Shown one piece after another: positions 5,946 to 27,368 of a stretch of DNA of 64,000 bases (within the stretch, counting starts at the first letter, position 1; every line of letters begins with the position of its first letter). A model generated the notes under the pieces. That model did no database searches. It saw nothing but the letters and a program-made list of their open reading frames with translations, and was not told the DNA's origin. The position numbers and the translations under genes are program-made. Where the stretch lies: IMG/VR virus record IMGVR_UViG_3300033153_011579; one strand, given 5' to 3'. This DNA is from a virus. Its lineage: Duplodnaviria > Heunggongvirae > Uroviricota > Caudoviricetes.

Positions 5946-5952
5946 GGACAAG

Positions 5953-7152: not shown

Positions 7153-7185
7153 GAGAATTTTACGTTCTCTGACACGGAGAAAAAG

Positions 7186-7674: not shown

Positions 7675-7712
7675 GCTTGTAAGAGAATTTTGCATTCTCT
7701 GACACGGAGAAG

Positions 7713-8376: not shown

Positions 8377-8410
8377 GAGAATTTATGATTCTCTGACACG
8401 AGATGGGTAG

Positions 8411-8650: not shown

Positions 8651-8683
8651 GAGAATTCAGGATTCTCTGACACGGAGGATGAG

Positions 8684-9052: not shown

Positions 9053-9091
9053 GAGAATTGAGAATTCTCTGACACGGAAAAGAGGAACTCA

Positions 9092-9349: not shown

Positions 9350-9382
9350 GAGAATTGGCGATTCTCTGACACGGAGAGGAAG

Positions 9383-9634
9383 ATGACCAGGCTCGAACAG
9401 TACCAAAAACTCCACGAGATCTTCCTCGTGAACAGGTTTTCGGACGTGTTGACCGAGGCTGAAGAAGACGACCTGCTCTACGCCCTGGACGCCGTTTGGT
9501 GGCAGATGACGAGTGCGGAGCACGCCGAAGCGGAGAAGGACACCTGGATGTGGAATCGGGTGCTGCGGGGATGGTTCGCGCACATCGATCCCGCTGGCGG
9601 AACGAACAACCCAGTGATGAAGTGGAGCTTGTAA
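9383..9634 (+). CDS. Hypothetical protein (83 aa)
   Basis: Cassette upstream. Confidence 0.65.
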   Translation: MTRLEQYQKLHEIFLVNRFSDVLTEAEEDDLLYALDAVWWQMTSAEHAEAEKDTWMWNRVLRGWFAHIDPAGGTNNPVMKWSL

Positions 9635-9669
9635 GAGAACTGACAATTCCCTTACACGAGGAGGAGAGG

Positions 9670-9945
9670 ATGAGGCGGAATCGCAGAACAATGGTGGCCA
9701 CAAGCACGATAGGTTCGTGGATGAGCCGAGTGTATAGACTGGAAGCTGAGAACGAAAAGCTTCGTACTGATCTTCTCTTCGCCAAAGCAAAGATTAAGGC
9801 GATCCGGGTACGTATTGAGATGGTCGATGATGGGGAGAGCTGTTACCAGTCACACGACGCGGTACCAGACATTCTCAACATTCTGCGTGGGGGGACGCTT
9901 TGGACAGGAAGTCCACAGTACGCCGCCGTCAAAAAACGCCTGTAA
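9670..9945 (+). CDS. Hypothetical coiled-coil protein (91 aa)
   Basis: Cassette variant (ATTCCCTTACACGAGGAGGAGAGG-ATG); start relocated to ATG 9670. Confidence 0.6.
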   Translation: MRRNRRTMVATSTIGSWMSRVYRLEAENEKLRTDLLFAKAKIKAIRVRIEMVDDGESCYQSHDAVPDILNILRGGTLWTGSPQYAAVKKRL

Positions 9946-9982
9946 GAGAACCGACTGACTCTATTACACGAGGAGATAATAG

Positions 9983-10465
9983 ATGCACGGGCTAGGAAGA
10001 AGAGGAAACCGCCGGAAGAAACGCCTGAAGAAACATCGAGGCCGTACTCCTGCTAGAGTTTCGGCATCCAGCAAGGTCTACAACACTACCTCCAGGACCG
10101 TCGTCAAGACTGCTGCGCCCAGCACCGTCGTCACGTTCGACGACGTAGCTGATCTGGCCGAGGCGACCCTCGACGAGGAGAACGTGACCGCGCTGTTCAT
10201 GCGGTACGACAATAACATCAGGCCAACGCTCTTCTACACTGCCTACGCGGAAACTCCGTCTGGGCGCGTCTTCCTCCAGGCAGTCCATGTACTGTCGAAA
10301 GATGAGATCTACGAGAACCCAAAACACCCGCTGCCCTGTTACAGGGACGGCAAGGACATGAGGTGCCCCTATCCGCAGGAGCACATCATCGACAGGGCCG
10401 TTGAGTACTGGGAGTCCCGAGGGATTGACGTCTACGAGGGCACGGTGGAGATGAAGATTTTGTAA
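9983..10465 (+). CDS. Hypothetical protein (160 aa)
   Basis: Cassette upstream. Confidence 0.65.
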   Translation: MHGLGRRGNRRKKRLKKHRGRTPARVSASSKVYNTTSRTVVKTAAPSTVVTFDDVADLAEATLDEENVTALFMRYDNNIRPTLFYTAYAETPSGRVFLQAVHVLSKDEIYENPKHPLPCYRDGKDMRCPYPQEHIIDRAVEYWESRGIDVYEGTVEMKIL

Positions 10466-10499
10466 GAGAACCTTCTATTCCCTGACATGGAGGATTGAG

Positions 10500-10733
10500 A
10501 TGAAAACGGGAGAACGCGAACTGTTCAAGGTAACCGGACGACCTGGTCGCCGTATCTGGCGCAAACAAGCCGGAGCGCGAGGGTACCGACCCATCTGGAC
10601 CTCCGACTACGTTGAGGAGGTTGACGGGAAGTTCTTCTGCACGATTCGGAGTGAGTCCGAGAACGACCTGCCGATGGAGCAGCACGATAACCTTCAAGAC
10701 GCGCTCGAGTGGTTGATGAGGGATCGGACGTAA
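10500..10733 (+). CDS. Hypothetical protein (77 aa)
   Basis: Cassette upstream. Confidence 0.65.
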   Translation: MKTGERELFKVTGRPGRRIWRKQAGARGYRPIWTSDYVEEVDGKFFCTIRSESENDLPMEQHDNLQDALEWLMRDRT

Positions 10734-10766
10734 GAGAATCAACGATTCTCTGACATGGAGGACAGG

Positions 10767-10961
10767 ATGAAACGCACGCTGTTGACCGAGATCGACTTTG
10801 ACCGTCAGAGCTGTCGGGTCATCGAGGCGGAGATCATCAAGTGCAACACCTGTAAGGGTAGCGGTTGGAAAGAGGTTTCGACGCACCGCGGAAACTACAG
10901 ACGCCGCTGTGCTCAGTGCCACGGCACAGGCAAGGTGCTGGTGGGACCGAAGGTTCGATGA
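10767..10961 (+). CDS. Zn-ribbon protein (64 aa)
   Basis: Cassette upstream; CNTCKGSG…CAQCHGTG. Confidence 0.65.
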   Translation: MKRTLLTEIDFDRQSCRVIEAEIIKCNTCKGSGWKEVSTHRGNYRRRCAQCHGTGKVLVGPKVR

Positions 10962-11002
10962 CTGTAAGAGAACAGACGATTCTCTGACACGAGGAGAGAA
11001 GG

Positions 11003-11254
11003 ATGAATTTCAGTAACGAGCAAATGACAGAGTGGCTGTCGGAGGTTCCGGAAGCTACCAGCGTACGCTGCGTGGCTATCCCTCCGTACATCAGTAAAGA
11101 GATGAAGGAGCGGCCAGTGATTCCGTGGGATCTGCTTACCCGAGAAGTCAACAACAAGATAGGTGATGGTGACCGCGTACTCGGGATTCGTGCTGCGGGG
11201 GCCAACTCCTACGGCAATTACTGGATCATCATTTGGGTTGGCAACAAAGAGTGA
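11003..11254 (+). CDS. Hypothetical protein (83 aa)
   Basis: Cassette upstream. Confidence 0.65.
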   Translation: MNFSNEQMTEWLSEVPEATSVRCVAIPPYISKEMKERPVIPWDLLTREVNNKIGDGDRVLGIRAAGANSYGNYWIIIWVGNKE

Positions 11255-11293
11255 GCTTGTAAGAGAAACTAATATTCTCTGACGGAGGAGAGC

Positions 11294-11527
11294 ATGGACA
11301 ACGATACCAAAAGACTGTGTGGCAACTGCTTCTGGTTTGATCAAGAGCTCTGTCGACGACTGCCACCGCGCATGATTGACCAGGTAGATCTTTATGAAAA
11401 AGATAGTGAGTTCAACACCTGGAATGCCAGTTACGCAGACGACTACACCTCTTGGCCAGTTGTAGAAGAGAAAGCCTGGTGCGGAGAATGGCGATCGAAG
11501 GAAGACGGCTGGCCCGTCGGTAAGTAA
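11294..11527 (+). CDS. Hypothetical protein (77 aa)
   Basis: Cassette upstream. Confidence 0.65.
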   Translation: MDNDTKRLCGNCFWFDQELCRRLPPRMIDQVDLYEKDSEFNTWNASYADDYTSWPVVEEKAWCGEWRSKEDGWPVGK

Positions 11528-11559
11528 GAGAATCAAACATTCTCTGACACGAGGAGAAG

Positions 11560-11673
11560 ATGATGGAAATTCTAATTTTTTGGCTGTGCTTTTGTGGACT
11601 CGGAGCCGTTGGTATATTGGTAGCGTCCTTGGTGATCCTCAGTGAGGAACGTCAACGAAACGGTCGCCAGTAA
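11560..11673 (+). CDS. Small single-TM peptide (37 aa), not in ORF track
   Basis: Cassette 11526-11559 upstream; MMEILIFWLCFCGLGAVGILVASLVILSEERQRNGRQ*. Confidence 0.55.
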   Translation: MMEILIFWLCFCGLGAVGILVASLVILSEERQRNGRQ

Positions 11674-11714
11674 GAGAATCAGCACGTTCCCTGAAAGGAA
11701 GATTGGAGAACAAA

Positions 11715-11927
11715 ATGTCGAAGAACACGGTCACGCAGCACGTTTTGGTTGATTCCCATGTTGAGTGCTTCCCTGAGGAATTCCTCGAAGCACTTCTCGC
11801 AGTTTGTCCGGCTCCCTTGGCACCGGACAGTCTTAAACAACTCCGTGACATAGGGAGAGTCCAGTTGAGCCTCTGGCTTTCCCCGGAGGACTTGAAGCGC
11901 TGGACAGGTAAAGCGCCAGGGGAATGA
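11715..11927 (+). CDS. Hypothetical protein (70 aa)
   Basis: Hybrid A/B motif upstream (GTAAGAGAATCAGCACGTTCCCTG). Confidence 0.55.
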   Translation: MSKNTVTQHVLVDSHVECFPEEFLEALLAVCPAPLAPDSLKQLRDIGRVQLSLWLSPEDLKRWTGKAPGE

Positions 11928-11976
11928 CACTTTCCCTGTGCCTACACAACAACCGCCTAGTGGGGCAAGGAGTAGG

Positions 11977-12330
11977 ATGATGACAGAGCATACATTGACC
12001 GTTGGTGGAAGCGAGGTCGTGGTTTCGAGTAACCCTGTTTCAAGGGACCTTGTCGGCTCGGACCGCAGCTTCGGAGATGAACGCGCGCACCCATGTCCGA
12101 ACTGTAGCAAAAATAGTCTGCGCTACCATTTCCTCGACTACAGGCCTGCGCTGTCGTGGGCCTGCGTCGAGTGTGGCTATGCTGAGCACCCGCCGATTGA
12201 AAAGTTGGTTGCCGATGGGTACTCCCCGCAGAAGGTAGAGGAGGATTGGTCGACCTGCATTTACCCAAAGGAGTGGATGCTTTACTCCCCGCTTGAGCGG
12301 TTAGCGTCACCACAAACACGAAAGGATTAG
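11977..12330 (+). CDS. Zn-ribbon protein (117 aa)
   Basis: Hairpin-B at 11929, SD AAGGAG; CPNC…CVECG. Confidence 0.55.
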   Translation: MMTEHTLTVGGSEVVVSSNPVSRDLVGSDRSFGDERAHPCPNCSKNSLRYHFLDYRPALSWACVECGYAEHPPIEKLVADGYSPQKVEEDWSTCIYPKEWMLYSPLERLASPQTRKD

Positions 12331-12334
12331 AACG

Positions 12335-12685
12335 ATGGGTTTGTTTTCACCACCAGGCCAAGCTCCAGATCTCCGAGAGGCGAAAGATGTTAGAGTTATC
12401 GTCACCCTATGCAAGGACGAAGAACCAGGTGATGGATATGTCCGAACACAGATAACCGCTCTCGATGAACTCGAGGAGGGTGAAGAGGGTTTAAATATTA
12501 ACGGAGACAACGTCTTTGAGGCACTGGTTTACGCGCTGTACCACCACTTTGTAAACGAGCACGAGGTTGGGCATTCTTGTTGCCTTACTCATTTTATCGA
12601 AGAGATCACAGACCTACTGGAGCGTGTCAACGAGACTGACGGAAACGAAAAGGTCAGTCGGAGTTCTGAAGAACACACACATTAA
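12335..12685 (+). CDS. Hypothetical acidic protein (116 aa)
   Basis: SD AAAGGA upstream. Confidence 0.55.
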   Translation: MGLFSPPGQAPDLREAKDVRVIVTLCKDEEPGDGYVRTQITALDELEEGEEGLNINGDNVFEALVYALYHHFVNEHEVGHSCCLTHFIEEITDLLERVNETDGNEKVSRSSEEHTH

Positions 12686-12794
12686 TAAGGGTTATTGCAT
12701 CAGCTGCGGACCGTCGACCCTGTATGAGGAATGACACGTTCCCTGGTGGGAGAACGTCGAACTGGAGTGAGAGGAGTTTGAATGTTTAAAGCAC

Positions 12795-12943
12795 GTCGAG
12801 TTCTCCGAGCGCGCGGTGAGTGTGGACGGGGGCCTGCGTTGGGTTTTTGTGACGAATTCTCCTTAGCAGGCCTTCTACGTGGAGTGCTTCAACCATTCCA
12901 TCGACCTACTCGACCCACTCACCGCGCGCTCGGAGAACTCGAC
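12795..12943. repeat. 28-bp perfect inverted repeat with a 93-bp spacer in a non-coding gap
   Basis: GTCGAGTTCTCCGAGCGCGCGGTGAGTG (12795-12822) and its exact reverse complement at 12916-12943; an inner IR GGCCTGC/GCAGGCC lies in the loop. Confidence 0.85.
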
Positions 12944-12971
12944 GGCACGCAGTCGGGGGAAGGAGAAAAGA

Positions 12972-13181
12972 ATGCGAAAATATCGATTTCAGCACGATGA
13001 GGATGGTGACGTGCTGTGGGTCTACATCGCCGGTAACTCCGCGTACCCAGGGGAGCACCGCTTCGATCCACCAGAAGTTTTGGAGGCCTACATCGGTTAC
13101 CTTCGAGCATGTAAAGGTGATCAACTTGATTCTGATGTAGTTATCGCCTGGAAGGACAGTGCTTGGGGTCCGGATGTCTGA
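12972..13181 (+). CDS. Hypothetical protein (69 aa)
   Basis: SD GGAAGGAGAAAAG upstream; the region 12686-12971 upstream is non-coding and structured. Confidence 0.5.
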   Translation: MRKYRFQHDEDGDVLWVYIAGNSAYPGEHRFDPPEVLEAYIGYLRACKGDQLDSDVVIAWKDSAWGPDV

Positions 13182-13232
13182 TGACACGTTCCCTGGTACC
13201 CCTATGCCCAAACACTAGGCAGGAGGAATGAG

Positions 13233-13412
13233 ATGTCTGAAAAGAAAGCTGTGGTTCAACGTGTTGTCATCCACGAACTCTTGGATGCAGGTGTGGTGGC
13301 GATCGAAGGACGTGATCTTGTGTTCGAGTCCCCCTGGGACAAGGGCTCAGAGGCGATGATTGCTTTGATGAAGAAAGGCCTCGTCAAAGACGTGGTCCGG
13401 GACAGGGAATGA
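13233..13412 (+). CDS. Hypothetical protein (59 aa), not in ORF track
   Basis: Hairpin-B at 13188, SD AGGAGGAATGAG-ATG; MSEKKAVVQRVVIHELLDAGVVAIEGRDLVFESPWDKGSEAMIALMKKGLVKDVVRDRE*. Confidence 0.5.
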   Translation: MSEKKAVVQRVVIHELLDAGVVAIEGRDLVFESPWDKGSEAMIALMKKGLVKDVVRDRE

Positions 13413-13437
13413 CACGTCCCCTGAAAGGAGAAGCCCG

Positions 13438-13713
13438 ATGGGTCAAACAACATCCGACAATCCAGGTGGAGTGAAGTCGCTCTTCGAAGATAACAACTCA
13501 CAAAAAGCTACTGCCTCCACGCTCGCCGGATACCTCGTCGAAGATGGTGCTTGGATGGTATTGCCAGATGGGGACCGCGAGATCACTATTGTGCGGCACA
13601 GAGACTATGGCACGATCATGTATCTCATTGATGGTCCAGGCGAGGATATAAGAAGCGGCGTAGTAAAAACGGTGCGAGAACTCGCTGACGCCATCGCCGT
13701 TGGTGGGGAATGA
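13438..13713 (+). CDS. Hypothetical protein (91 aa)
   Basis: Hairpin-B 13408 plus SD AAAGGAGAAG upstream. Confidence 0.6.
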   Translation: MGQTTSDNPGGVKSLFEDNNSQKATASTLAGYLVEDGAWMVLPDGDREITIVRHRDYGTIMYLIDGPGEDIRSGVVKTVRELADAIAVGGE

Positions 13714-13774
13714 CACGTTCCCTAGGAACTTGAGCTTGTAAGAGAATCTCGCATTCTCTGACACGGAGGAAAAA

Positions 13775-13954
13775 ATGGACGAACACATGAGATATTTAGG
13801 CTGCCTGAAACTACTTGAGGATTGCTCACCTTACGTACCGGAAGAGATTCGTGAGGGTATCGAGATGGCTCACGACGATGCTGTAGAGGCCAGCAACGGG
13901 ACCTTGCGGGCTCGCAGTGTGCTCGATCGACGAGAGATCGAGGTGGTGACGTAA
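13775..13954 (+). CDS. Hypothetical protein (59 aa), not in ORF track
   Basis: Tandem hairpin-B plus cassette-A upstream (13711-13774). Confidence 0.5.
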   Translation: MDEHMRYLGCLKLLEDCSPYVPEEIREGIEMAHDDAVEASNGTLRARSVLDRREIEVVT

Positions 13955-13985
13955 GAGAATCCGCACGTTCTCTTACACGGAGGAA

Positions 13986-14189
13986 ATGATGGGTAAAGAT
14001 GTGAGGACCAAGACATTCGCTATGATGTTTCGGGAGCGCTGCGTGATCATGCGGGATGCTTTCGACCGCCGTGACGTAGAGGGCTTTGCTACTGCTCTCA
14101 AGGACGTTGAGCGCCTGATGCGAGAGCACGCCGAGGGGTGCGGCTGCTCACAATGCCGAGAGACGCTGAAGATCATGAATGAGGTGTAA
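13986..14189 (+). CDS. Cys-containing protein (67 aa)
   Basis: Cassette upstream; CGCSQC. Confidence 0.6.
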   Translation: MMGKDVRTKTFAMMFRERCVIMRDAFDRRDVEGFATALKDVERLMREHAEGCGCSQCRETLKIMNEV

Positions 14190-14223
14190 GAGAATACACA
14201 CGTCCTTTAACACGGAGGAAACG

Positions 14224-14460
14224 ATGAGTACTGTTCTGGATAATGACCAAAAATTGATGGTAATTCTGGCGGTTGTGGTGGCACTCTTCCTGTTAATTTT
14301 GGCTGGTGGGAAGCTTATTGGTGATGTTTTGTCACCCCCAACACCCCAAGAGGACTGTATGAACCAGGCCCAGCAGCTGGACAGCGAGGAGTCTGAGAAA
14401 GAAGCCTACTACAAGTGTCTTGAGTCTTTAGGGCTGGAAGATCCTAAAAAGGCTTTGTAA
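14224..14460 (+). CDS. Small membrane protein (78 aa)
   Basis: Cassette upstream; TM LMVILAVVVALFLLILAGG. Confidence 0.65.
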   Translation: MSTVLDNDQKLMVILAVVVALFLLILAGGKLIGDVLSPPTPQEDCMNQAQQLDSEESEKEAYYKCLESLGLEDPKKAL

Positions 14461-14492
14461 GAGAATCTTCCGTTCTCTGACACGGAGAAGAA

Positions 14493-15164
14493 GTGAAGCT
14501 GAGAAAACCACCAATCCTCTGCTCGATCTGCGGAGACCCAATCGTCACGAAGTGGCGAGACAAGCGAAGGCAGACCTGCGGGTCTCCCGAGTGCCGGGTG
14601 GCGATCCTGCTCGAGCCGCACCTGGGCGACCGGACTCGACCGTACGCCGGCGGAGCTCGCGGGAAGTGGAAAAAAAGCACCAAGCGCGGGTCGGTGGTGC
14701 GCGACCTCGCGAAGTGGGGTATTGGGCTTTCCGAGGAGATCTCCACGAACCTCGCCGACGCGGCCGACCAGGTCTTTAAGAGAACCAAAACCGCGAAGGC
14801 GGTCGGGACGAAGAAGGACGAGCGCGGTGCGGACCACCCGGAGGCCCAGGCTCAGATCTGGGGCTTCCTCGCTCGTAGGAGCGCGCTCATAAAAGTCGTC
14901 AGCAAGGACGACGGCGAGCCCGGGTTGCTCATTCTCAAAACCAAAAGCGAGAGTGTCCCGCACGCCATCCGCCGTCTCCTGAGCATCACCCCGGTCTCCG
15001 AGAACCTGTGCGATGTCTTCATGGCGTGGAGCTGTCCTTGCCCTCAGGACTCTCGAGTGATTTACGAAACGATCGACGACCTGCCCAAGACGGTAGGCTA
15101 TCACGACCCGTGCCCGCGTTGCGGTGCGGCACCACTGGAGGTGAAAAATGTTCCTAAAAAATAG
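14493..15164 (+). CDS. Zn-finger protein (223 aa, GTG start)
   Basis: Cassette upstream; CSICG…CGSPEC …CPRCG. Confidence 0.6.
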   Translation: MKLRKPPILCSICGDPIVTKWRDKRRQTCGSPECRVAILLEPHLGDRTRPYAGGARGKWKKSTKRGSVVRDLAKWGIGLSEEISTNLADAADQVFKRTKTAKAVGTKKDERGADHPEAQAQIWGFLARRSALIKVVSKDDGEPGLLILKTKSESVPHAIRRLLSITPVSENLCDVFMAWSCPCPQDSRVIYETIDDLPKTVGYHDPCPRCGAAPLEVKNVPKK

Positions 15165-15528: not shown

Positions 15529-16487
15529 TGCCGACCAGAGCACACATCCAGGCGTTGGCCAACGCGAGAGAGGCTCTCGAGCCGTTCAGCCGGTGGCTCG
15601 TCCGCGGGTGCGGGAAGACCGATGGAGAGGCCGACTTCATCATCAGCTTCGTGTGTCGCGCGCTGTGGACTTCCACCGCCGACGACGACGAGGATCCCGA
15701 CCCGCTCGATTGCCTCTCCGAGCCGATGATCACCCGGCCGACATTCAACAAGCTGAAATCGGCCATCCGGCAGTATTACACCTGGCACCTCGTCCGGCAG
15801 TCGTCGCCACCGAGTGAGAAAGAGCGGGCGAGGCGGCAGCTCAGGCGGCTCGAATCCATCTTGCCGTACGGCGGCGTCGGGAGACGAGCCAAACGGGTCG
15901 CGATCGATGCGCTGTCGCAGGCGGATTTAAAAAAGCTCATGGACGGACTGAAAAAATGGCACGCGGAACAAGGACGGCGATGGCCCTGGAGCTACCCGGT
16001 GATCAGCATGTGCCTGAAGATCTCGCCGGCGATCAGAAACTGTCTGGTCTACCTCTCTCGTGAGGAGCTCGTCCTCGCTCTCGCCGACGGGGTGAACAGC
16101 GGGTCGTTCAACCTGTGGGTCCGCCAGAAGAACGTGCCGGTCATGAGGTCGATCCCCATCGGGCTCGTCTGGAAAGAGGCGGACATGCTCGTCGGCTGGC
16201 CCTGGCAATGGGAGACGCTCCAGGACATTATCTCGTCGTCCAACGCGAGCACCCAGAACTCGGTGAACAAGATCAAAGAGATCTCTTTCAAGTACTATCG
16301 CCACGTCCTGGGAGACATCGGCGACCCGAAGACGTTCTTAGCTCGACTTCGGTATGCCACCTGGGTCTGGCTCTTGAAAAAGACGAAAGGCGACTGGCTC
16401 TCCGTCGCGCAGATCGTCGGGAAGTCGGTAAAGATCCTCAGAAGACGGCCGGAGCTGCTCGAGGTCGTGTCGAGGAGGCTGAACTAG
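15528..16487 (+). CDS. Integrase-like protein with a degenerate catalytic box (319 aa)
   Basis: ARLRYATWVWLLKKTKGDWLSVAQIVGKS resembles box II of tyrosine recombinases (LRHTxAT…G.D…LGHS) but lacks the His and Tyr residues. Confidence 0.35.
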   Translation: MPTRAHIQALANAREALEPFSRWLVRGCGKTDGEADFIISFVCRALWTSTADDDEDPDPLDCLSEPMITRPTFNKLKSAIRQYYTWHLVRQSSPPSEKERARRQLRRLESILPYGGVGRRAKRVAIDALSQADLKKLMDGLKKWHAEQGRRWPWSYPVISMCLKISPAIRNCLVYLSREELVLALADGVNSGSFNLWVRQKNVPVMRSIPIGLVWKEADMLVGWPWQWETLQDIISSSNASTQNSVNKIKEISFKYYRHVLGDIGDPKTFLARLRYATWVWLLKKTKGDWLSVAQIVGKSVKILRRRPELLEVVSRRLN

Positions 16488-17191
16488 TCCGATACGCAGC
16501 GAGTGTACTGAGACTCGGTCTTGAGAGACCCCCACACATAGGCCTCGGAGAACAGGACGCCCCAGGCGTACGCCGGGTTGTTCCCGGGCGAGCTCGACCA
16601 GTGGTACGACCAGCACGGACCGACAAGGTCATCCCCCCAGTAGCACCCGTCCGACCCGGGGCCTTCCAATTCGGCGCACGGATCGCAGTCGGGACCCTCC
16701 GCGCACGGATTCGTCAGGCAGTCGGGGTCGGTCACCCCGCAGTCTACCGACGCGCAGCCGACGATGATTCCCGACAGCTCCTGGATCAGCGGGAGTCGCC
16801 AGTCGTCGCCGAGGGCCTCGCAGTAGTCGACCGCGTCGACCCAGAGCATGAGCTCGGTGCTCGGCGGGTTCTCCCAGCAGAGGTCGCCGTCTAGCCAGCA
16901 GGTGGCCGTGTCGGTATCGGTGTCGGTATCGGTGTCGGTGTCGGTATCGATCACTGTTTCCGTATTGGTTTCGGTATCTTGCGTGTCTGTGTCGATCACG
17001 GTGTCCGTGTCGGTGTCCGTATCGGTCTCGGTGTCGGTGTCACCGTCGGTGTCCGTGTCCGTGTCGGTGTCCGAATCGACGTCCGTGTCGGTGTCGCCGG
17101 CGTCCGGCTCCATGAACGGAGCCTCGGTATCGCCGCAGGCCATCACAATTGCGAATATCCAAATATATCTCATCCTACATCTCCTCCCCAT
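16484..17191 (-). CDS. Lipoprotein with (TD)n repeats and a DUF1566/Lcl-like C-terminal Cys-rich domain
   Basis: Lipobox IVMAC-G, about 35 Thr-Asp dipeptide repeats, WRLP..EL motif; strong SD GGGGAGGAG. Confidence 0.6.
   Translation of the reverse strand: MGRRCRMRYIWIFAIVMACGDTEAPFMEPDAGDTDTDVDSDTDTDTDTDGDTDTETDTDTDTDTVIDTDTQDTETNTETVIDTDTDTDTDTDTDTATCWLDGDLCWENPPSTELMLWVDAVDYCEALGDDWRLPLIQELSGIIVGCASVDCGVTDPDCLTNPCAEGPDCDPCAELEGPGSDGCYWGDDLVGPCWSYHWSSSPGNNPAYAWGVLFSEAYVWGSLKTESQYTRCVSD
16890..17110. repeat. Coding microsatellite (GTCGGT/ATCGGT)n encoding the (TD)n tract
   Basis: Hexamer-periodic repeats visible in the sequence; the + strand alternative frame reads VSVSVS. Confidence 0.8.
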
Positions 17192-17420
17192 GCTGCAGAG
17201 CTCTCAGGGCCTCCCCGAGGTCCATGAACTCCTCGACCAGGCTGACGTCACCGTCCTCGCCGCCGGGTGCCCAAAGGTCGTACGTCCGGCTCGTCTTGTC
17301 GAATATCACGAAGTCGTCCGGCTCGACCGCCTCGAACACGCCGTCCTTGACGACCCCGGTCACCCGGTACTTCCGGCCTCTCTCGTGAGGATCGCTACTG
17401 AACCAAAATCCAATTTTCAT
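17175..17420 (-). CDS. Hypothetical protein (81 aa)
   Basis: ORF with protein-like composition; overlaps downstream gene start. Confidence 0.5.
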   Translation of the reverse strand: MKIGFWFSSDPHERGRKYRVTGVVKDGVFEAVEPDDFVIFDKTSRTYDLWAPGGEDGDVSLVEEFMDLGEALRALQHGEEM

Positions 17421-17596
17421 CTCAAACTCCTATGCTCACGGGCTCGAGGGAGAGACAGGCCCCCCGGAGAACGACGACCGAGGCGAAGGCAGAAAGCCGC
17501 TGGTCAGACGGCAACCCCGACCGCTTTACAGGCGACCCGTCACTCCATCCAACCCGTGAGGTACTTCGTACATGTGTGATTTTGCGCTTCGGCATC

Positions 17597-18598
17597 CTAA
17601 AAAGGCGTCTTCCGCTCTGCTGCAGCCCTGATCATACCGTCTATCTCGCTCTTCAGCCACTCTCGCTCTCGCTCGGTCGGCTCCCGCCCCTTCACGCGGC
17701 CCGTGAACCACCCCAAATCGGCCTCCCAGTCGTACTCGTCGGCGAACACCCGGACCACCTGCAGCATCCGGTCTTTTACGTGCGCTCGAGTCAACCTCCC
17801 GCGGGAGATCGGCGCAGGCTTCTCCAGCGTCGCCATCAGCCCGCTAGCGGGTATGTATTCCTCGGACTCGTCCGGCTCGTCCTCTGAGGCCTCGTCGGGC
17901 TCGAGAGGCTCAGAATCGCCCTGAGGGGCGCTAGCGCCCTCTTTACATTGTTCACTAACACTGGAATCGGCGTTGACCGCGTTGATCAGGACAACGTGAT
18001 CGTCCAGCTTGTGCCAGAACGCTTGGACGAGTCCAGAGCACATCGCCTCGTCGAGCTTCTCGTCGTCCTCTTGCAGGCCGGACATCATGACCCGCCGAGT
18101 GTCAGGGTAGGTCGCCTCGATCTCACTCAGCAGACCGAGACCAGACATCCCAGGCATCTCGAAGTCGGTGATGACCACGTCGAACGTCCCGAGCTTGTTG
18201 ATGAGCATGATCGCCTGACTCGCCGAGCTCGCCTGGGTCGTCTCCCAGTCTTTGGGGAGAAGCCGGCAGACCGTCCGCCGCATGATGTCCTCGTCGTCGA
18301 CCACGAGGATGCGCAGGCGTCTCTTCGACGTCCTGGCTTCCGGAGGGTTGGTCCAGGCCCGGCACTCGCGAGCGAGGTTGACGTTCCCAACGCGCTCGGA
18401 GGTCGCGTAGACCGTCTCGATCACGGACTGCCAGAGGCCGCTGCAGGACTCGGGAGGTCCCCAGATCTCCTTCGGCCCAGCTCCCTCGATGGAGCTCAGC
18501 AGCCGGCCCTTGATCGTCGGGTCGAACAGCCCCTCTTTGAGAAACTGCATCGCGACCTCGCGAAGCTCGGGGTCCAGTGGTCGTCTAGATTTTGTCAT
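17597..18598 (-). CDS. Response-regulator receiver (CheY-like) protein with an unknown N-terminal domain and an acidic C-terminal tail
   Basis: ILVVDDEDIM…VVITDFEMPGMSG…RVMMSG receiver signature; motif C immediately upstream of ATG. Confidence 0.7.
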   Translation of the reverse strand: MTKSRRPLDPELREVAMQFLKEGLFDPTIKGRLLSSIEGAGPKEIWGPPESCSGLWQSVIETVYATSERVGNVNLARECRAWTNPPEARTSKRRLRILVVDDEDIMRRTVCRLLPKDWETTQASSASQAIMLINKLGTFDVVITDFEMPGMSGLGLLSEIEATYPDTRRVMMSGLQEDDEKLDEAMCSGLVQAFWHKLDDHVVLINAVNADSSVSEQCKEGASAPQGDSEPLEPDEASEDEPDESEEYIPASGLMATLEKPAPISRGRLTRAHVKDRMLQVVRVFADEYDWEADLGWFTGRVKGREPTEREREWLKSEIDGMIRAAAERKTPF

Positions 18599-18633
18599 TT
18601 CCGCTCTCTTTCTGCCGGAACCACCCGGCTGAT

Positions 18634-18861
18634 TTAGTCGCGCTCGACCGTGACGTCTTCCGCGTCGTAGGTGTGACCGAGGTCTTCCATCTCCATCCCG
18701 ACCTGCTTCTTGAGCTCCTCGTCGCTATCGCTTTGGGTCTGCGACAGGTTCTCGAACGACTCGAGGGCGAGCTGGCCGTCGTCGAGATCGTAACGGACTA
18801 CCCAGCCGCTGTAGTCGTCGGCTTCACCGTCCCAAAGTACTCTGATGTTGCTTGCGATCAT
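18634..18861 (-). CDS. Hypothetical acidic protein (75 aa)
   Basis: Motif C upstream. Confidence 0.6.
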   Translation of the reverse strand: MIASNIRVLWDGEADDYSGWVVRYDLDDGQLALESFENLSQTQSDSDEELKKQVGMEMEDLGHTYDAEDVTVERD

Positions 18862-18903
18862 CTTCCGCTCTCTCTCTGCCGGCGACCAGCCGGCGGTTAT
18901 TCG

Positions 18904-19215
18904 TCAGCTTAAAACCGGCCAGAGCTGGACGTCGAAGATCTCCTCTTGCGTCCTCTGGATGTCTGTGAGGATCTGGTCCTGCTTCGCGAGCGCGGCGTAT
19001 GACTCCTCGTCGCCCTCGGCCTTGTCGGCATCTTCGAACCACGCGCGCCAGTTCTGGTTCGGGGCATCGCCCCACTCGCAGTCGATCGTGATGTCAGGAT
19101 ACAGTCGCGCGATCTCTTCGCCGACTGCCTTGCAGAACCTGTGCATCGACTTCTGGACGTCCATCCCGTCCATGTCGCCCATCGCGTGCTCGTCGATTCT
19201 GATGTGTGCGATCAT
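18904..19215 (-). CDS. Hypothetical protein (103 aa)
   Basis: Start moved to ATG 19215, as motif C ends in …GCGGAAAATGA; track start 19242 lies inside the motif. Confidence 0.55.
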   Translation of the reverse strand: MIAHIRIDEHAMGDMDGMDVQKSMHRFCKAVGEEIARLYPDITIDCEWGDAPNQNWRAWFEDADKAEGDEESYAALAKQDQILTDIQRTQEEIFDVQLWPVLS

Positions 19216-19246
19216 TTTCCGCTCTCTTTCTGCCGGAACCACCCGG

Positions 19247-19420
19247 CTAGTTGTCTTTAGATGCCTTGTTTATATGCGGGTACCACTTCTGCTGCCGAGT
19301 CCACATCTCTAAAACCTCGTCGGATGGTTCCCCGTATATGTCCAAGGAACAATCATTGCACTCGCCTTGCGGACCATATGGCTCTGTCAAACACCCACAC
19401 TCTGGACAACAGTTTTTCAT
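19247..19420 (-). CDS. Small Zn-ribbon protein (57 aa), not in ORF track
   Basis: Motif C upstream; MKNCCPECGCLTEPYGPQGECNDCSLD…. Confidence 0.55.
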   Translation of the reverse strand: MKNCCPECGCLTEPYGPQGECNDCSLDIYGEPSDEVLEMWTRQQKWYPHINKASKDN

Positions 19421-19524
19421 TTTTCCGCTCTCTTTCTGGCCGGAACCACCCGGCTCACCAATTTAGACCCTGCACCCTGCTACATATTCACCACATTCGT
19501 AAGTGGTTGATTTTTCTCACCTTA

Positions 19525-19854
19525 TTAGCTCTTGGCCCGAGGATTCCGGACCTTGGGTTTCCGACCCTGCCGGACGGCTGTCATCCAGGCCTCGAGCTCG
19601 GCGACGAGGGCCTTGCTCTCGCGCAAGGTGTCTCGCTTCATCGGGTTCCCGCGGCTATCCTCTTCCGGGATCCACCGGCCGTACTTGTCCCTGCTGAACA
19701 CGAACCAGAGAGGCCCCCAGTTGAGCGACCTGGACTTCTTCTCGTCGGTCGCCGGCACGTACCCCGATTTTTCGATCTTCCAGTCTGCCGACGGGCAGCC
19801 GATGGACGTGTACTGACCGGCCGCCTTCCTCTTCCATTTGCATGAGTTTTCCAT
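19525..19854 (-). CDS. Hypothetical basic protein (109 aa)
   Basis: ORF, protein-like composition. Confidence 0.5.
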   Translation of the reverse strand: MENSCKWKRKAAGQYTSIGCPSADWKIEKSGYVPATDEKKSRSLNWGPLWFVFSRDKYGRWIPEEDSRGNPMKRDTLRESKALVAELEAWMTAVRQGRKPKVRNPRAKS

Positions 19855-19860
19855 GTCTCT

Positions 19861-20076
19861 TTATACCCTCACTGTGGGGTTGGGTTCCAGTCCAATCATC
19901 GACCGGACGTTCGCCGAAGACCCGAGACGGTCGGCCCAGATCTCCGCAGCGTGGTAGTCGCCGCTCGCGTAGGCAATCTGAAACTGTTTGACCGCTTCCT
20001 CGACCAGGGTGTTGGCCAGCTCGACCGCTTCCTCGTCGTTCTTGGGCTCTATCATCATCGCTTCTTCAAAGGTCAT
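19861..20076 (-). CDS. Hypothetical acidic protein (71 aa)
   Basis: ORF. Confidence 0.5.
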   Translation of the reverse strand: MTFEEAMMIEPKNDEEAVELANTLVEEAVKQFQIAYASGDYHAAEIWADRLGSSANVRSMIGLEPNPTVRV

Positions 20077-20124
20077 CGTTTTCTCCTGGTTGCCGTGCCT
20101 ACCCTGCTGATGCTCTCGACCGCC

Positions 20125-20496
20125 CTAATGTGACAGCCACTCCAACATTTCATCGAATTTTTTTGCCTCGCCGACCCTTGCGACGCCGTCCATATCGTCG
20201 GTGAACAGCCCGTATTTTCCGGTCTTCGGCGACCACATCGCATACCTGTATCCCCCACCGCGGCTGTCGTAGGTCTCGGTCACCACGGACCAGTGGAACC
20301 GTCGGATGCTGTACTCGATCCGACCGTCATCGAAGTGCTTGGCCAAGATGGCTCTGCCGTGCGGGAGATCGACATCTGGTTTCGACTCTCGAGCCTGAAG
20401 GCGGGTCCTGGACGACCCGTCCTTCTTCTTCTTCCACGAGCTGATGCATCCGGCCATCCTCTCTCTATGGGTCTTTCTGGTCTTCCTGCGCTTCAT
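20125..20496 (-). CDS. Hypothetical basic protein
   Basis: ATG at 20496 (track start 20526 is TTG); start uncertain. Confidence 0.4.
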   Translation of the reverse strand: MKRRKTRKTHRERMAGCISSWKKKKDGSSRTRLQARESKPDVDLPHGRAILAKHFDDGRIEYSIRRFHWSVVTETYDSRGGGYRYAMWSPKTGKYGLFTDDMDGVARVGEAKKFDEMLEWLSH

Positions 20497-20608
20497 GCCC
20501 CAGAGGCAATGCAAGCCCGGTGCCAACCAGAAAACTCAATGAAATTACGGGGCGGTCGGCCGGAGAGAGGGGCTGAGGTAAGATCTGTTACCGGGGAGGT
20601 GCGATCGG

Positions 20609-21295
20609 TTACATTCCGGCGATAAAAGCTGGCGGGCCAGCCCGCGCCACCAGGATCGGGCCGATCTTCGATCTCTCCCGCTTCACCTTCCGGGTCCTGA
20701 CCTTGGGGCCGAAGGCCGACGTCTTGCAATTCCCGGCCTGGTAGCAGGAGAGGGTCCCGACCAGGCTCCCGTCGCACTCTTCCTCCTGGCACCTCTTGAG
20801 CTCGTCGGTACCGGCCGAGAGCTGGCCCTCGGACGTCTTCATGTCGTAGCCCTTGGACAGAGCCTTTTTCAGAACCTGCCCGTGGACTTGCATCAGGCCT
20901 TGCTCTCCGTCTTTCCCATCTCGGATCTTTTCGTAAAAGCTCGATTCGTGGTCGACGACGACGGCCACCACGAGCGGGTCGACCCCGCGCTCGTCGGCAA
21001 TCCTGTCGATCATCGCCGCGAGCTTCGGAGCTCGCCGAGCTCTCTTCTGGTTGAGGGTGACCTCGATGCAGGCGTCTCGCCCTGGGCCTTCCTTCCGCTT
21101 CTTGCACGACGCGCTCAGAAAGCGCTTGATATAGTCCTCGACGTGGTCGGCTGTGACGAGTTTTTGGCCTCCCCAGACCGACGGCTCGTCACCAAGACCC
21201 TTCGACTCGGTCGGCCACGGGATCATCCAGATGACGATCACCACGAGGATGGCGATCAGTAAAAATAAAAAGAATCTGCCTCGCTTGTTCAGCAT
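20609..21295 (-). CDS. Lytic transglycosylase (SLT domain) with an N-terminal TM anchor
   Basis: VVDHESSFYEKIRDGKDGEQGLMQV (catalytic ES…GLMQ motif); SD CAGGAGGAC. Confidence 0.7.
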   Translation of the reverse strand: MLNKRGRFFLFLLIAILVVIVIWMIPWPTESKGLGDEPSVWGGQKLVTADHVEDYIKRFLSASCKKRKEGPGRDACIEVTLNQKRARRAPKLAAMIDRIADERGVDPLVVAVVVDHESSFYEKIRDGKDGEQGLMQVHGQVLKKALSKGYDMKTSEGQLSAGTDELKRCQEEECDGSLVGTLSCYQAGNCKTSAFGPKVRTRKVKRERSKIGPILVARAGPPAFIAGM

Positions 21296-26062: not shown

Positions 26063-26266
26063 TCAATCCTCCCTCGTATATTTGTCTAAGAGCGCCTGCT
26101 GCTCCTTGGTGAGTTCTTCTCCGATCTGGGTCAGCATGACGACGTGCCAGAACTCGCACATCTCCCGCTGGGCGTCGTCGCACATTATTTGGAACTCGTC
26201 GGTGATCGTCTCGCCTTCTTCGAGCGGCGGCGCTTTGATCTCGACGGTCCAGGTGATCTCAGTCAC
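26063..26266 (-). CDS. Small acidic all-alpha protein, possible minimal MazG-like fold
   Basis: LEEGETITDEF…QREMCEFWHVVMLTQIGEELTKEQQALLDKY loosely matches the ExxE…ExxE helices of MazG; weak. Confidence 0.25.
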   Translation of the reverse strand: MTEITWTVEIKAPPLEEGETITDEFQIMCDDAQREMCEFWHVVMLTQIGEELTKEQQALLDKYTRED

Positions 26267-27368
26267 GGATCACCTCGACGATCCCTTTGGCAGTTGGTGA
26301 CAAGCTCGCGAGGACCGCATCGGCTCCGGTGACCTCCCTGATGTGCGCCAGGAACTTTGCGTCGTCGTCCATCTTCAAGATCTCGCCGCCGTCGAAGAAC
26401 CGAAAGTCGTCGTTGATGAGGTCGAGGCACGTGACGGCCAGCTCCGGGGTTTTCGTCATGATGTAGTCGTCTTTGTAGATGGCGTAGCTGAGCAGGTCGA
26501 GATCCAGGAGGGTCTTCCTAAATGTTCCCTGGGGGCCGTCGTCCGGGTTCTGCTCGTGTGGATTGTCCTTGATGTTGCAGGGGACGATGTCGCTCATCGG
26601 ACCTTTCCCATGCCGCGTCTGGTAAGCGCGGGTGACGAGCACGATCTCCGGCTCGTATCCCATCTCGCAAATATTTTTCGACCCGGTGTTCGTCGGAGTG
26701 ACGTATGGAAAAAAACCAAAATTCTGGTCGAGCAGCAGGCCTTGCGACCCTTCCCAGATAACCGTTTCGAACGAATCGATGACCTGCTCGTTCGACATCC
26801 CGATGGCCGCGTTGTGTGTCACCTCGTCGCACGCGACGAAGAAATTTTGGATGATGTAGTCGTCCGGTCTGAAGCCGTAGTATTGATAAAACTGCTCCAT
26901 CTTCATCCGCATTATTCTCGGGTGGAACAGGTCTTCGAACAGCAGGTGATGACCCTCCCGCTCTCTTTTGACGGTCGCGAAGATTCCGACCTCACAGCTG
27001 CCGCCGAAATCGGAATTCCGCTTATTCCACTCGATTTCAAACGGCGTGGTGACCGGGCACCTGTGGTCGACGAGGAGTCGTGGGAAGACTTTTTTCACCA
27101 GCAAGACGTCGAGCTCGTTCATGAGGGCGACGGGGTTGACCGAGCAGTATTTCGACCAGAAGGTCGGGACGCCTCGGAACGACCCGCTACCGAAATGAGA
27201 AAATACGTGAGACCTACCGTCCTCGAGCACCACCTGATGCGCGGCCTGGTGGCCGCCCGAGAACCGCACCACGAGCTCGGCCTTGTTGACGTCACAGAGG
27301 TAGTCGACCAGATGTCCTTTCCCCTCGTCCCCAAAGCCGAGCCCGATGACAGCGATGTGCTTGGTCAC
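26259..27368 (-). CDS. purZ?: Adenylosuccinate-synthetase-family enzyme (PurA homologue; candidate PurZ/PurZ0)
   Basis: N-terminal MTKHIAVIGLGFGDEGKGHLVDYL…VVRFSGGHQAAHQV matches the PurA P-loop and GGHNAGH signatures. It is 369 aa versus about 430 for bacterial PurA. Confidence 0.7.
   Translation of the reverse strand: MTKHIAVIGLGFGDEGKGHLVDYLCDVNKAELVVRFSGGHQAAHQVVLEDGRSHVFSHFGSGSFRGVPTFWSKYCSVNPVALMNELDVLLVKKVFPRLLVDHRCPVTTPFEIEWNKRNSDFGGSCEVGIFATVKREREGHHLLFEDLFHPRIMRMKMEQFYQYYGFRPDDYIIQNFFVACDEVTHNAAIGMSNEQVIDSFETVIWEGSQGLLLDQNFGFFPYVTPTNTGSKNICEMGYEPEIVLVTRAYQTRHGKGPMSDIVPCNIKDNPHEQNPDDGPQGTFRKTLLDLDLLSYAIYKDDYIMTKTPELAVTCLDLINDDFRFFDGGEILKMDDDAKFLAHIREVTGADAVLASLSPTAKGIVEVIRD

What the first reader, a model, noticed from the sequence alone, without database searches (positions are those of the whole stretch)
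18599..19455. Third start-associated motif family on the opposite strand
- Four consecutive minus-strand genes, including the response regulator, are each preceded by GCCGGGTGGTTCCGGCAGAAAGAGAGCGGAAA(A)ATGA ending in the start codon.
- The ORF track's starts fall inside the motif and are probably wrong.
- One of the four genes, a 57-aa Zn-ribbon ORF at 19247-19420, is absent from the track and only detectable through the motif.
- Taken with motifs A and B, the genome uses distinct conserved translation-initiation/regulatory modules for different gene sets.
Basis: seen in the sequence. Interest (0 to 1): 0.6.

Follow-up and report, generated by a model that had tools for sequence, protein, structure and literature searches.

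The report
Repeated hairpin-plus-start cassette in phage
Four neighbouring, unrelated genes of an uncultured phage each begin with the same ~35-base cassette (a small GC hairpin, a purine-only leader, then ATG), a real phage-specific gene-junction signal resembling the poorly understood start-associated repeats of some mycobacteriophages, whose function is not shown here.

Summary
Four copies lie on the minus strand (18596-18629, 18859-18894, 19213-19247, 19418-19454). Two are identical over 32-33 nt, one has a 1-nt insertion, and one is diverged but still folds. All are in register with the ATG of four consecutive, unrelated ORFs.

Each copy is a 6-bp GC stem-loop, then 15-18 nt of almost pure purine, then ATG. 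The distance to the start is fixed; the distance to the upstream stop varies from -1 to 70 nt. The Shine-Dalgarno match is weak compared with neighbouring genes. No sigma-70 promoter hexamers, no U-tract terminator on the coding strand and no Rfam family match. The motif occurs nowhere else in the window or in the public collections searched.

The window is a novel phage. It also carries about 30 copies of a different stop-hairpin-SD-start junction on its small-gene block. Distant homologues of one cluster gene, in unrelated contigs, are flanked by the same layout with other hairpin sequences, including two compensatory stem swaps.

Best reading (confidence about 0.45): a reused intercistronic expression cassette acting on the mRNA, probably also a recombination point for gene cassettes. 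A DNA operator reading is not excluded. It is a new variant of SAS/ESAS- and PeSL-like elements. Function is inferred, not shown.

The parts
19418..19454 (-). Motif C copy 1: stem GCCGG 19454-19450, loop GTGGTT 19449-19444, stem CCGGC 19443-19439, extra C 19438, purine tract AGAAAGAGAGCGGAAAA 19437-19421, ATG 19420-19418.
   Evidence: RNA fold -11.2 kcal/mol with the tract and AUG unpaired.
19213..19247 (-). Motif C copy 2: stem 19247-19243, loop 19242-19237 (contains the GTG of the longest ORF), stem 19236-19232, purine tract 19231-19216, ATG 19215-19213. The TAG of the upstream ORF (19249-19247) overlaps the first stem base.
   Evidence: RNA fold -10.8 kcal/mol.
18859..18894 (-). Motif C copy 3 (diverged): stem GCCGGC 18894-18889, loop TGGTC 18888-18884, stem GCCGGC 18883-18878, purine tract AGAGAGAGAGCGGAAG 18877-18862, ATG 18861-18859. 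The G.U closing pair of the other copies is a C-G pair here.
   Evidence: RNA fold -13.0 kcal/mol.
18596..18629 (-). Motif C copy 4: stem 18629-18625, loop 18624-18619, stem 18618-18614, purine tract 18613-18599, ATG 18598-18596. The upstream TAA (18636-18634) ends 4 nt before the stem.
   Evidence: RNA fold -11.4 kcal/mol.
19247..19420 (-). 57-aa Cys-rich (CPEC...CNDC) ORF behind copy 1. Low-GC outlier, not called by the source annotation, no homologue.
18904..19215 (-). Gene 2, 103 aa, behind copy 2. A real protein family with three distant homologues. The start at the motif ATG is supported.
18634..18861 (-). Gene 3, 75-aa acidic ORFan behind copy 3. Unrelated to gene 2 apart from the first three codons (ATGATCGCA).
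17597..18598 (-). Response-regulator receiver protein (REC domain at residues 97-191; N- and C-terminal parts unassigned) behind copy 4.
19455..19524 (-). AT-rich 70-nt spacer upstream of copy 1, with its own hairpin ACCAC-N8-GTGGT (19490-19507). Together with the 57-aa ORF it forms a local GC dip (0.49-0.51).

Best explanation
Motif C is a reused intercistronic expression cassette that is read on the leftward polycistronic mRNA.

Shown:
- Each copy is a 6-bp GC stem-loop (about -11 to -13 kcal/mol as RNA), followed by 15-18 nt that are purine-only except for one C (two in copy 1), followed by AUG.
- The distance to the AUG is fixed; the distance to the upstream stop is not.
- The diverged copy keeps the hairpin through changes on both arms.
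- The four downstream ORFs are unrelated to each other.

Inferred:
- The stem-loop folds as soon as the upstream cistron has been translated. It fences off the purine tract, which cannot pair with itself or with the stem.
- The AUG and the weak GAG/GGA Shine-Dalgarno-like elements are therefore presented single-stranded. The 3' edge of the stem sits about where the 5' border of the 30S footprint would be (from general knowledge).
- This gives four unrelated ORFs the same initiation site, independent of context and probably modest in strength. The stem may also act as a barrier to mRNA decay.
- The near-identical copies arise from, and invite, recombination between cassettes. That would explain how unrelated ORFans, including the low-GC 57-aa ORF bracketed by two copies, came to sit in a row at the far end of this operon.
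For: - Copies and register.
- Fixed hairpin-to-ATG distance against variable stop-to-hairpin distance.
- Every copy folds into the same hairpin, with the tract and AUG unpaired.
- On the coding strand the sixth pair is a G.U wobble in copies 1, 2 and 4 and C-G in copy 3. The opposite strand forms only 5 pairs in those three copies.
- Weak SD pairing relative to neighbours.
- No sigma-70 promoter in 16-21 kb, and no terminator-like hit at the motif hairpins on the coding strand.
- No Rfam family.
- The downstream proteins are unrelated.
- The 57-aa ORF plus spacer is a GC dip bracketed by copies 1 and 2.
- Same layout elsewhere. L018/L019 have three consecutive small genes, the third a 40%-identical homologue of gene 2. 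Each is preceded by GCGGC-CGGGA-GCCGC + SD + ATG. Two of the six stem pairs are swapped on both sides in the third copy (94% paired against 22-50% in the slid controls).
- L020 has TAG overlapping a 5-bp GC hairpin, then SD, then ATG, directly after its homologue.
- L018/L019 contain a repeated TTGACA element, with TTGACA-N17-TAGCAT upstream of one gene, at sites separate from these modules. I read these as sigma-70-like promoters from the sequence, so there the modules are not the recognisable promoters.
- Other non-overlapping junctions of the same operon also have a (unique) hairpin followed by a purine-rich RBS.
Against: - There are no transcript, ribosome or protein data.
- With four copies, three of them nearly identical, covariation cannot be tested statistically in the window. 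The L018 support rests on three copies, and 51 of 500 shuffles reach the same score.
- In the large family A, the hairpin arms are conserved as sequence, there are no two-sided compensatory changes, and G.U-type departures show no clear strand bias (13 G.U cells out of 31 departures). That pattern suits a sequence-reading protein on RNA or on DNA at least as well as a purely structural element.
- A palindrome with 11-bp centre-to-centre half-sites is also what a dimeric DNA-binding protein would recognise.
- Identity of 33 nt between copies 2 and 4 could reflect recent duplication and not selection.
- No relatives carry the motif, so conservation over time is unknown.
Confidence: 0.45

Rival explanations
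1. A DNA-level binding site. The palindrome GCCGG-N6-CCGGC (GCCGGC-N5-GCCGGC in copy 3) is an operator for a dimeric phage regulator, possibly the response regulator encoded in the same cluster. The regulator would block or modulate transcription at each gene junction, in the manner of mycobacteriophage stoperators or the inverted repeat of ESAS.
For: - The two half-sites are about 11 bp apart centre to centre.
- The hairpin folds equally on either DNA strand.
- In family A the arms are conserved as sequence while the spacer is free, the pattern expected of a protein-read palindrome.
- A regulator-like gene sits in the cluster.
- ESAS inverted repeats are now interpreted as operator-like elements next to promoters (PMC11373665).
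- Stoperators sit in short intergenic spaces and follow the direction of transcription (PMC9283540).
Against: - No promoter-like hexamers are nearby.
- The asymmetric purine tract and the 1-3-nt register with the ATG are not explained by an operator.
- Stem changes in copy 3, and in the L018 modules, alter the half-site sequence while keeping the pairing. That is the opposite of what a sequence-specific operator predicts.
- The response regulator has no recognisable DNA-binding domain, and its structure could not be modelled.
Confidence: 0.18
2. A recombination junction only. The copies are scars or substrates of cassette insertion by homologous recombination between short shared junctions (the PeSL-type shuffling model), with no role of their own in expression beyond carrying a start codon.
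For: - Near-identical copies bracket unrelated ORFans.
- The low-GC 57-aa ORF is bracketed by copies 1 and 2.
- Copies 2 and 3 share 9 further bases into the coding region.
- The cluster lies at the far end of the operon, next to the convergent junction.
- The gene 2 family occurs in unrelated phage contigs with different junction sequences, so the junction belongs to the resident genome and not to the gene.
- PeSLs are documented to mediate this kind of shuffling (PMC2839356, PMC4122927).
Against: - No close relative exists in which to look for indels bounded by the motif. The other samples carry the identical sequence.
- A 33-nt stretch is a short substrate for homologous recombination.
- The strict register with the ATG and the retained hairpin in the diverged copy suggest selection on the element itself.
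Confidence: 0.15
3. A phage-specific promoter. Each copy is recognised by a phage-encoded or phage-modified RNA polymerase (hairpin-type or otherwise non-sigma-70), giving each gene its own short-leader transcript.
For: - The sequence is highly conserved and sits directly upstream of each gene, as class-specific phage promoters do.
- Hairpin-form promoters exist in N4-like phages (from my own knowledge).
Against: - No RNA polymerase or sigma factor was detected among the proteins screened.
- No sigma-70-like hexamers.
- Four promoters for four small adjacent genes inside an otherwise tightly packed operon is uneconomical.
- In L018/L019, sigma-70-like sequences are separate from the analogous modules.
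- The large proteins tested have no match in the phage records or the family libraries searched, so kinship with N4-like phages is not supported.
Confidence: 0.07

Closest known systems
[quoted passage not shown] 2011, PMC3203893; PMC11373665; PMC12699233)
   Same: - A short conserved asymmetric repeat within a few bases of the start codons of a subset of non-structural genes, all in the gene's orientation, extending beyond a plain RBS.
- A subset has an inverted repeat with a variable spacer just upstream.
- The consensus is specific to each lineage.
- The function is still undefined.
   Different: - No sequence similarity. The SAS consensus is absent beyond chance.
- The arms here are 5-6 bp, not 15-17 bp.
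- ESAS is now read as a SigA-like promoter plus inverted repeat, and no such hexamers occur here.
- The SD content of motif C is weak, whereas SAS contains GGAG.
- Only 4 copies, all in one cluster.
- An unrelated phage with an unknown host.
PeSLs (promoter-early stem-loops) of T4-like phages (Arbiol et al. 2010, PMC2839356; Comeau et al. 2014, PMC4122927)
   Same: - Near-identical short intergenic cassettes containing a stem-loop, lying between small ORFans in variable regions.
- The consensus is specific to each lineage.
- Proposed to be both regulatory and points of recombination.
   Different: - PeSLs are defined by a sigma-70-type (or Mot-type) promoter next to the stem-loop. Motif C has none.
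- Motif C runs into the start codon, and PeSLs do not.
- The link to indels cannot be tested here.
Stoperators of Cluster A mycobacteriophages (PMC9283540)
   Same: Many copies of one short sequence in short intergenic spaces near gene boundaries, oriented with transcription.
   Different: - Stoperators are 13-mer asymmetric sites bound by a monomeric immunity repressor, with more than 20 copies spread across the genome.
- Motif C has a palindromic part, 4 clustered copies and no identified binding protein.
Family A junction modules of the same window (about 1.1-14.5 kb, plus strand)
   Same: Same layout: upstream stop, hairpin, purine-rich RBS, ATG, all in the gene's orientation, in front of small ORFans.
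   Different: - An unrelated sequence (AGAGAAT-N5-ATTCTCT + GACAC + GGAGGAG).
- A strong canonical SD.
- About 30 copies.
- The stop codon is built into the motif.

Membership tests
SAS (Cluster K mycobacteriophages) | Match to the consensus GGGATAGGAGCCC with at most 2 mismatches, next to start codons | tested here: not met
   Two matches in 64 kb against 1.75 expected by chance. Both lie in ORFs listed, and neither is at the motif.
SAS (Cluster K mycobacteriophages) | Asymmetric conserved repeat ending within 3-9 bp of the start codon of a subset of non-structural genes, in the gene's orientation | tested here: met
   The conserved tract AGARAGAGAGCGGAA runs directly into the ATG or ends 1-2 nt before it (GCGG ends 2-4 nt before). 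All four copies are co-oriented with non-structural genes.
ESAS (Cluster K) | Pair of imperfect 15-17-bp inverted repeats with a variable spacer, immediately upstream of the SAS | tested here: inconclusive
   An inverted repeat is present immediately upstream, but its arms are only 5-6 bp with a 4-6-nt spacer.
ESAS (Cluster K) | Contains SigA-like -35 and -10 hexamers (PMC11373665) | tested here: not met
   No sigma-70-type site was found in 16000-21000. Non-consensus promoters are not covered by the scan.
PeSL (T4-like phages) | Sigma-70-like early (or Mot-type middle) promoter within the cassette | tested here: not met
   motif C region; family A region: 4 sites against 6.0 expected; none at a canonical copy, one at a degenerate CTGACACGGAG site at 3072.
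PeSL (T4-like phages) | Conserved stem-loop in intergenic spaces flanking ORFans of variable regions | tested here: met
PeSL (T4-like phages) | Indels or replacements between close relatives, bounded by the cassettes | not testable with these tools
   The only other copies of this genome region are identical. The one relative found ends before the cluster.
Stoperator (Cluster A mycobacteriophages) | 13-mer asymmetric site bound by the immunity repressor, with more than 20 sites across the genome | tested here: not met
   Four sites, all within 860 bp, and none elsewhere in 64 kb. No repressor was identified, and binding cannot be tested.
Intrinsic (Rho-independent) terminator | GC-rich hairpin followed by a U-run on the transcribed strand | tested here: not met
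   On the coding (minus) strand the hairpin is followed by AGAAAGAGAG. Only the opposite strand gives weak terminator-like hits, at two copies, from non-conserved flanks.
Any Rfam RNA family | Covariance-model match | tested here: not met
   No match at gathering score over the whole window, nor at E <= 1 over 18400-19700.

The most novel reading that the evidence does not exclude
The different hairpin families may be address labels for dedicated trans-acting RNA-binding factors, so that this phage runs separate post-transcriptional regulons: family A for about 30 small plus-strand genes, and motif C for the four-gene cluster. Phosphorylation, perhaps by a host kinase, would then switch translation or processing of its own operon. 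Nothing found here excludes this: the protein's N- and C-terminal domains are unassigned and could not be modelled.
Probability: 0.1. Interest if true: 0.75.

Novelty: new variant of a known kind. Interest (0 to 1): 0.45.

Why it matters
Start-associated repeats were described in Cluster K mycobacteriophages in 2011, and their role was still called unclear in 2024-2025 (PMC11373665, PMC12699233). This window gives an independent, unrelated example in which the same layout (hairpin, purine-rich leader, start codon) appears in at least two sequence families within one genome. The layout appears again, with other sequences and compensatory stem changes, around a shared gene family in other phage contigs.

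That points to a general way for phages to standardise the junctions between small accessory genes, for expression and possibly for cassette exchange. It also gives compact, easily synthesised elements (about 35 nt) for direct testing.

In practical terms, the motif marks true start codons and small genes that automatic callers miss or misplace.

Tried and rejected
- Relatives by DNA. Exact and degenerate motif C and family A patterns were scanned against viral, metagenome and genome collections. Every hit was a single chance match without the hairpin/ATG context and without similarity to the window.
- Relatives by protein. The response regulator matched over its full length only the source's own protein. 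The 224-aa neighbour gave identical contigs from two other samples, with no variation, and one 69%-identical relative whose contig stops short of the cluster. The viral-contig searches with three queries found nothing. The phage records hold no relative: the two large proteins tried gave no match, the PurZ-like protein only about 35% identity, and DNA only one 71-nt match.
- Gene duplication as the origin of the repeat. Rejected, because the four proteins are unrelated.
- Hairpin enrichment by minimum free energy upstream of all gene starts. Uninformative, because GC-rich coding sequence folds equally well everywhere.
- Structure prediction of the response regulator, to look for a DNA- or RNA-binding output domain. 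pLDDT 37.6, unusable.
- Strand asymmetry and covariation in family A, as a proxy for an RNA-level against a DNA-level role. Inconclusive.
- Trans-factor search among about 45 window proteins against Pfam and, for some, PHROGs. No RNA-binding protein, RNase, sigma factor or polymerase was found.
- Integron attC-like reading of the junctions. Considered and set aside from my own knowledge of attC sites: no RYYYAAC/GTTRRRY cores and far too short. The integrase-like hit at 82-969 is weak.
- RNase III site. Considered unlikely from general knowledge, because 6 bp is too short.

Full report
**What is there**

On the minus strand between 18596 and 19454 there are four copies of one short element. 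Each ends in the ATG of a gene. The repeat finder groups four copies (family D14). The 11-mer AGAGAGCGGAA occurs exactly four times in the 64-kb window, only at these sites.

In the alignment, conservation begins at the first base of an inverted repeat and stops at ATGA. The flanks are unrelated, except that copies 2 and 3 share nine more bases, ATGATCGCA. Copies 2 and 4 are identical. Copy 1 has an extra C after the stem and an extra A before the ATG. Copy 3 is clearly diverged.

**Anatomy**

Each copy has three parts:
- A stem-loop: GCCGG-GTGGTT-CCGGC in copies 1, 2 and 4, and GCCGGC-TGGTC-GCCGGC in copy 3.
- A 15-18-nt tract that is purine-only apart from one C (two in copy 1): AGARAGAGAGCGGAA.
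- The ATG.

As RNA, all four fold into a 6-bp hairpin of -10.8 to -13.0 kcal/mol, and the tract and AUG stay unpaired. In copies 1, 2 and 4 the sixth pair is a G.U wobble that exists only on the coding strand. In copy 3 it is a C-G pair, so both arms changed and pairing was kept. As single-stranded DNA the hairpin forms on either strand, with 5 pairs on the non-coding strand in three copies.

The distance from the stem to the ATG is 15-18 nt. The distance from the upstream stop codon to the stem is -1, 9, 4 and 70 nt. The element is therefore tied to starts, not stops.

Pairing of the tract with the anti-Shine-Dalgarno sequence is weak: -4.5 to -5.3 kcal/mol, bulged. Most other genes of the same strand block score about -6 to -12 and carry ordinary GGAGG, AGGAG or GAGG sites without any shared motif.

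The consensus scans find no sigma-70-type promoter in 16-21 kb. On the coding strand the hairpin is followed by AGAAAGAGAG, not a U-run. The terminator-like hits at two copies are on the opposite strand and come from non-conserved flanks. No Rfam family matches, even at E <= 1.

**The genes**

Four ORFs sit behind the four copies:
- A 57-aa CxxC...CxxC ORF (19247-19420).
- A 103-aa protein (18904-19215).
- A 75-aa acidic protein (18634-18861).
- A 333-aa protein with a receiver (REC) domain (17597-18598).

They are unrelated to one another, so the repeat is not a remnant of gene duplication. Apart from the REC domain, none has a significant Pfam match; the three small ones also have no PHROGs match, while the REC protein matches three PHROGs families of unknown function over its REC region.

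Start codons:
- Gene 2: the mechanical longest ORF starts at a GTG inside the hairpin loop. The source's own call is the 103-aa form starting at the motif ATG (P0015), and the N-terminus aligns residue for residue with a homologue.
- Gene 3 and the 57-aa ORF: the motif ATG is already the first possible start.
- The receiver protein: the source annotation starts 16 codons further down (P0001, 317 aa), at an ATG with a GAGG site of its own (my reading of the sequence). The motif ATG is plausible by analogy but unproven.

The 57-aa ORF was not called in the source annotation and has no homologue. Its composition is atypical: GC 0.48 and GC3 0.57, against GC3 0.80-0.85 for its neighbours, though GC3 is highest in its own reading frame. 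Together with the 70-nt AT-rich spacer upstream it forms the lowest-GC stretch of the region. This looks like an inserted piece bracketed by copies 1 and 2.

**Genome context**

The window is a novel phage:
- It has a PurZ/PurA-like adenylosuccinate synthetase, DUF5131, GP88, an SLT lysozyme-like protein and a thioredoxin.
- It has no tRNA genes and is mostly ORFans.
- The phage records hold no relative: no match for the two large proteins tried, and only about 35% identity for the PurZ-like protein.

It has three strand blocks. The first, plus strand at 1-16.5 kb, consists of small genes joined by about 30 copies of a different module: G-TAA-GAGAAT-N5/6-ATTCTCT-GACAC-GGAGGAG-N3-6-ATG. In about 21 of 29 of these copies the TAA is the in-frame stop of the upstream ORF. 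Hairpin-plus-RBS junctions are therefore a habit of this genome, and motif C is a second, unrelated sequence family with the same layout.

In the minus-strand block most genes overlap or abut. Several of the few real gaps have a unique hairpin followed by a purine-rich RBS, but only the four motif C gaps reuse one sequence.

**Outside evidence**

Neither motif C nor family A occurs in the viral, metagenome or genome collections beyond single chance matches. The same phage was recovered from two other samples with an identical sequence, which gives no variation to analyse. One 69%-identical relative of a neighbouring gene ends before the cluster.

Gene 2 has three distant homologues, and their contexts are informative:
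- In L018/L019, three consecutive small genes, the third being the homologue, are each preceded by GCGGC-CGGGA-GCCGC + GGAGG-type SD + ATG. In the third copy two of the six stem pairs are exchanged on both sides (G-C to C-G, and C-G to G-C). Pairing is 94%, against 22-50% in the slid controls.
- In L020, the homologue's TAG overlaps a 5-bp GC hairpin that is followed by an SD and the next ATG. This is the same layout as window copy 2.
- These contigs share nothing else detectable with the window.
- L018/L019 contain a repeated TTGACA element, with TTGACA-N17-TAGCAT upstream of one gene, at other positions. I read these as sigma-70-like promoters from the sequence; the modules are not at those sites.

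The numbers are small: three copies, and 51 of 500 shuffles reach the same score. They point to a constraint on the hairpin as a structure, and to the junction sequence belonging to the resident genome and not travelling with the gene.

**How it most likely works**

The fixed register with the AUG, the co-orientation, the retained pairing despite arm changes, the coding-strand-only wobble pair, the unpairable purine tract, and the lack of promoter or terminator consensus all fit best with an element read on the mRNA. A stem-loop would insulate a single-stranded landing site and start codon from the upstream coding sequence, and may also slow decay. This would give four unrelated ORFs the same, probably modest, initiation site.

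The near-identity of the copies, the bracketed low-GC ORF, the shared ATGATCGCA extension and the position at the far end of the operon suggest that the cassette is also where new genes are recombined in, as proposed for PeSLs (PMC2839356, PMC4122927). I give this combined reading about 0.45.

The main rival (0.18) is a DNA palindrome read by a dimeric regulator, possibly the cluster's own receiver protein. Family A supports it indirectly: its arms are conserved as sequence, there are no two-sided compensatory changes, and departures show no clear strand bias. The ATG register and the pairing-preserving stem changes argue against it. A recombination-only scar (0.15) and a non-sigma-70 promoter (0.07) remain possible.

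**Comparison with known systems**

The closest described elements are the SAS/ESAS repeats of Cluster K mycobacteriophages: a conserved asymmetric repeat at start codons, with an upstream inverted repeat in a subset, and a function still undefined (PMC3203893, PMC11373665, PMC12699233). Motif C works like these in its placement, but it is not a member:
- The SAS consensus is absent.
- The arms are far shorter.
- The promoter hexamers now assigned to ESAS are missing.

PeSLs share the stem-loop, the ORFan context and the proposed shuffling role, but they are defined by a promoter that is not found here. Stoperators share the intergenic, oriented placement, but they are asymmetric repressor sites spread across the whole genome (PMC9283540).

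**Verdict**

The functional claim is plausible but unproven. I rate it a new variant of a known kind, and of moderate interest.

Noticed in passing
window 1137-14500, + strand: Family A junction module, about 29-31 copies: G-TAA-GAGAAT-N5/6-ATTCTCT-GACAC-GGAGGAG-N3-6-ATG, in front of nearly every small gene of the block. The TAA is the in-frame stop of the upstream ORF in about 21 of 29 copies. The arms are conserved as sequence and the loop is free. The conserved ACACGGAGGA equals the CsrA/RsmE-type binding consensus (A/U)CANGGANG(U/A), as I recall it; this was not tested.
   Followed up: partly
window 5343, 11921, 12728, 13406, 13707, + strand: Family B hairpin GGGAATG-ACA-CGTTCCC (about 9 bp). 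It lies 30-60 nt upstream of some starts, twice directly ahead of a family A copy, and is not in register with start codons.
   Followed up: partly
window 2746-3045 and 5953-6252: A 300-nt direct repeat, 92% identical: a duplicated small-gene segment. Each copy is followed by a degenerate module (CTGACACGGAG + ATG).
   Followed up: no
window 26259-27368, - strand: An adenylosuccinate synthetase homologue whose best match is the PHROG annotated as the PurZ-type enzyme. This raises the possibility of a 2-aminoadenine (Z) genome. Companion genes (DatZ or MazZ type) were not looked for.
   Followed up: no
window 17597-18598, - strand: A phage-encoded receiver-domain protein with about 95 N-terminal and about 140 C-terminal residues of unknown fold, and an acidic linker. 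The only full-length match in 5.8 billion proteins is the source's own protein. The single-sequence AlphaFold model failed (pLDDT 37.6).
   Followed up: partly
window 16484-17191, - strand: A protein with a long Asp-Thr dipeptide repeat and an Lcl C-terminal domain, at the convergent junction of the two strand blocks.
   Followed up: no
window 82-969, + strand: A weak tyrosine-recombinase (Phage_integrase) hit, below the Pfam cut-off, at the head of the family A gene array.
   Followed up: no
window 19455-19549: An AT-rich 70-nt spacer with its own hairpin (ACCAC-N8-GTGGT, 19490-19507) just upstream of motif C copy 1. Together with the 57-aa ORF it forms a GC dip to 0.49. It could be a transcription boundary or the edge of an insertion.
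   Followed up: partly
L017 219-300 and 627-708: Two consecutive genes share an almost identical ~70-nt upstream stretch plus their first 16 codons (14 of 16 residues identical). For the first gene, that stretch lies inside the upstream ORF.
   Followed up: no
L018 919-951, 1212-1244, 1551-1583 (the same in L019): An independent three-copy hairpin+SD+ATG module family in an unrelated phage-like contig. The first copy lies inside the 3' end of the upstream ORF (ATGA overlap). The genes it precedes include small Cys-rich ORFs, then the gene 2 homologue.
   Followed up: yes
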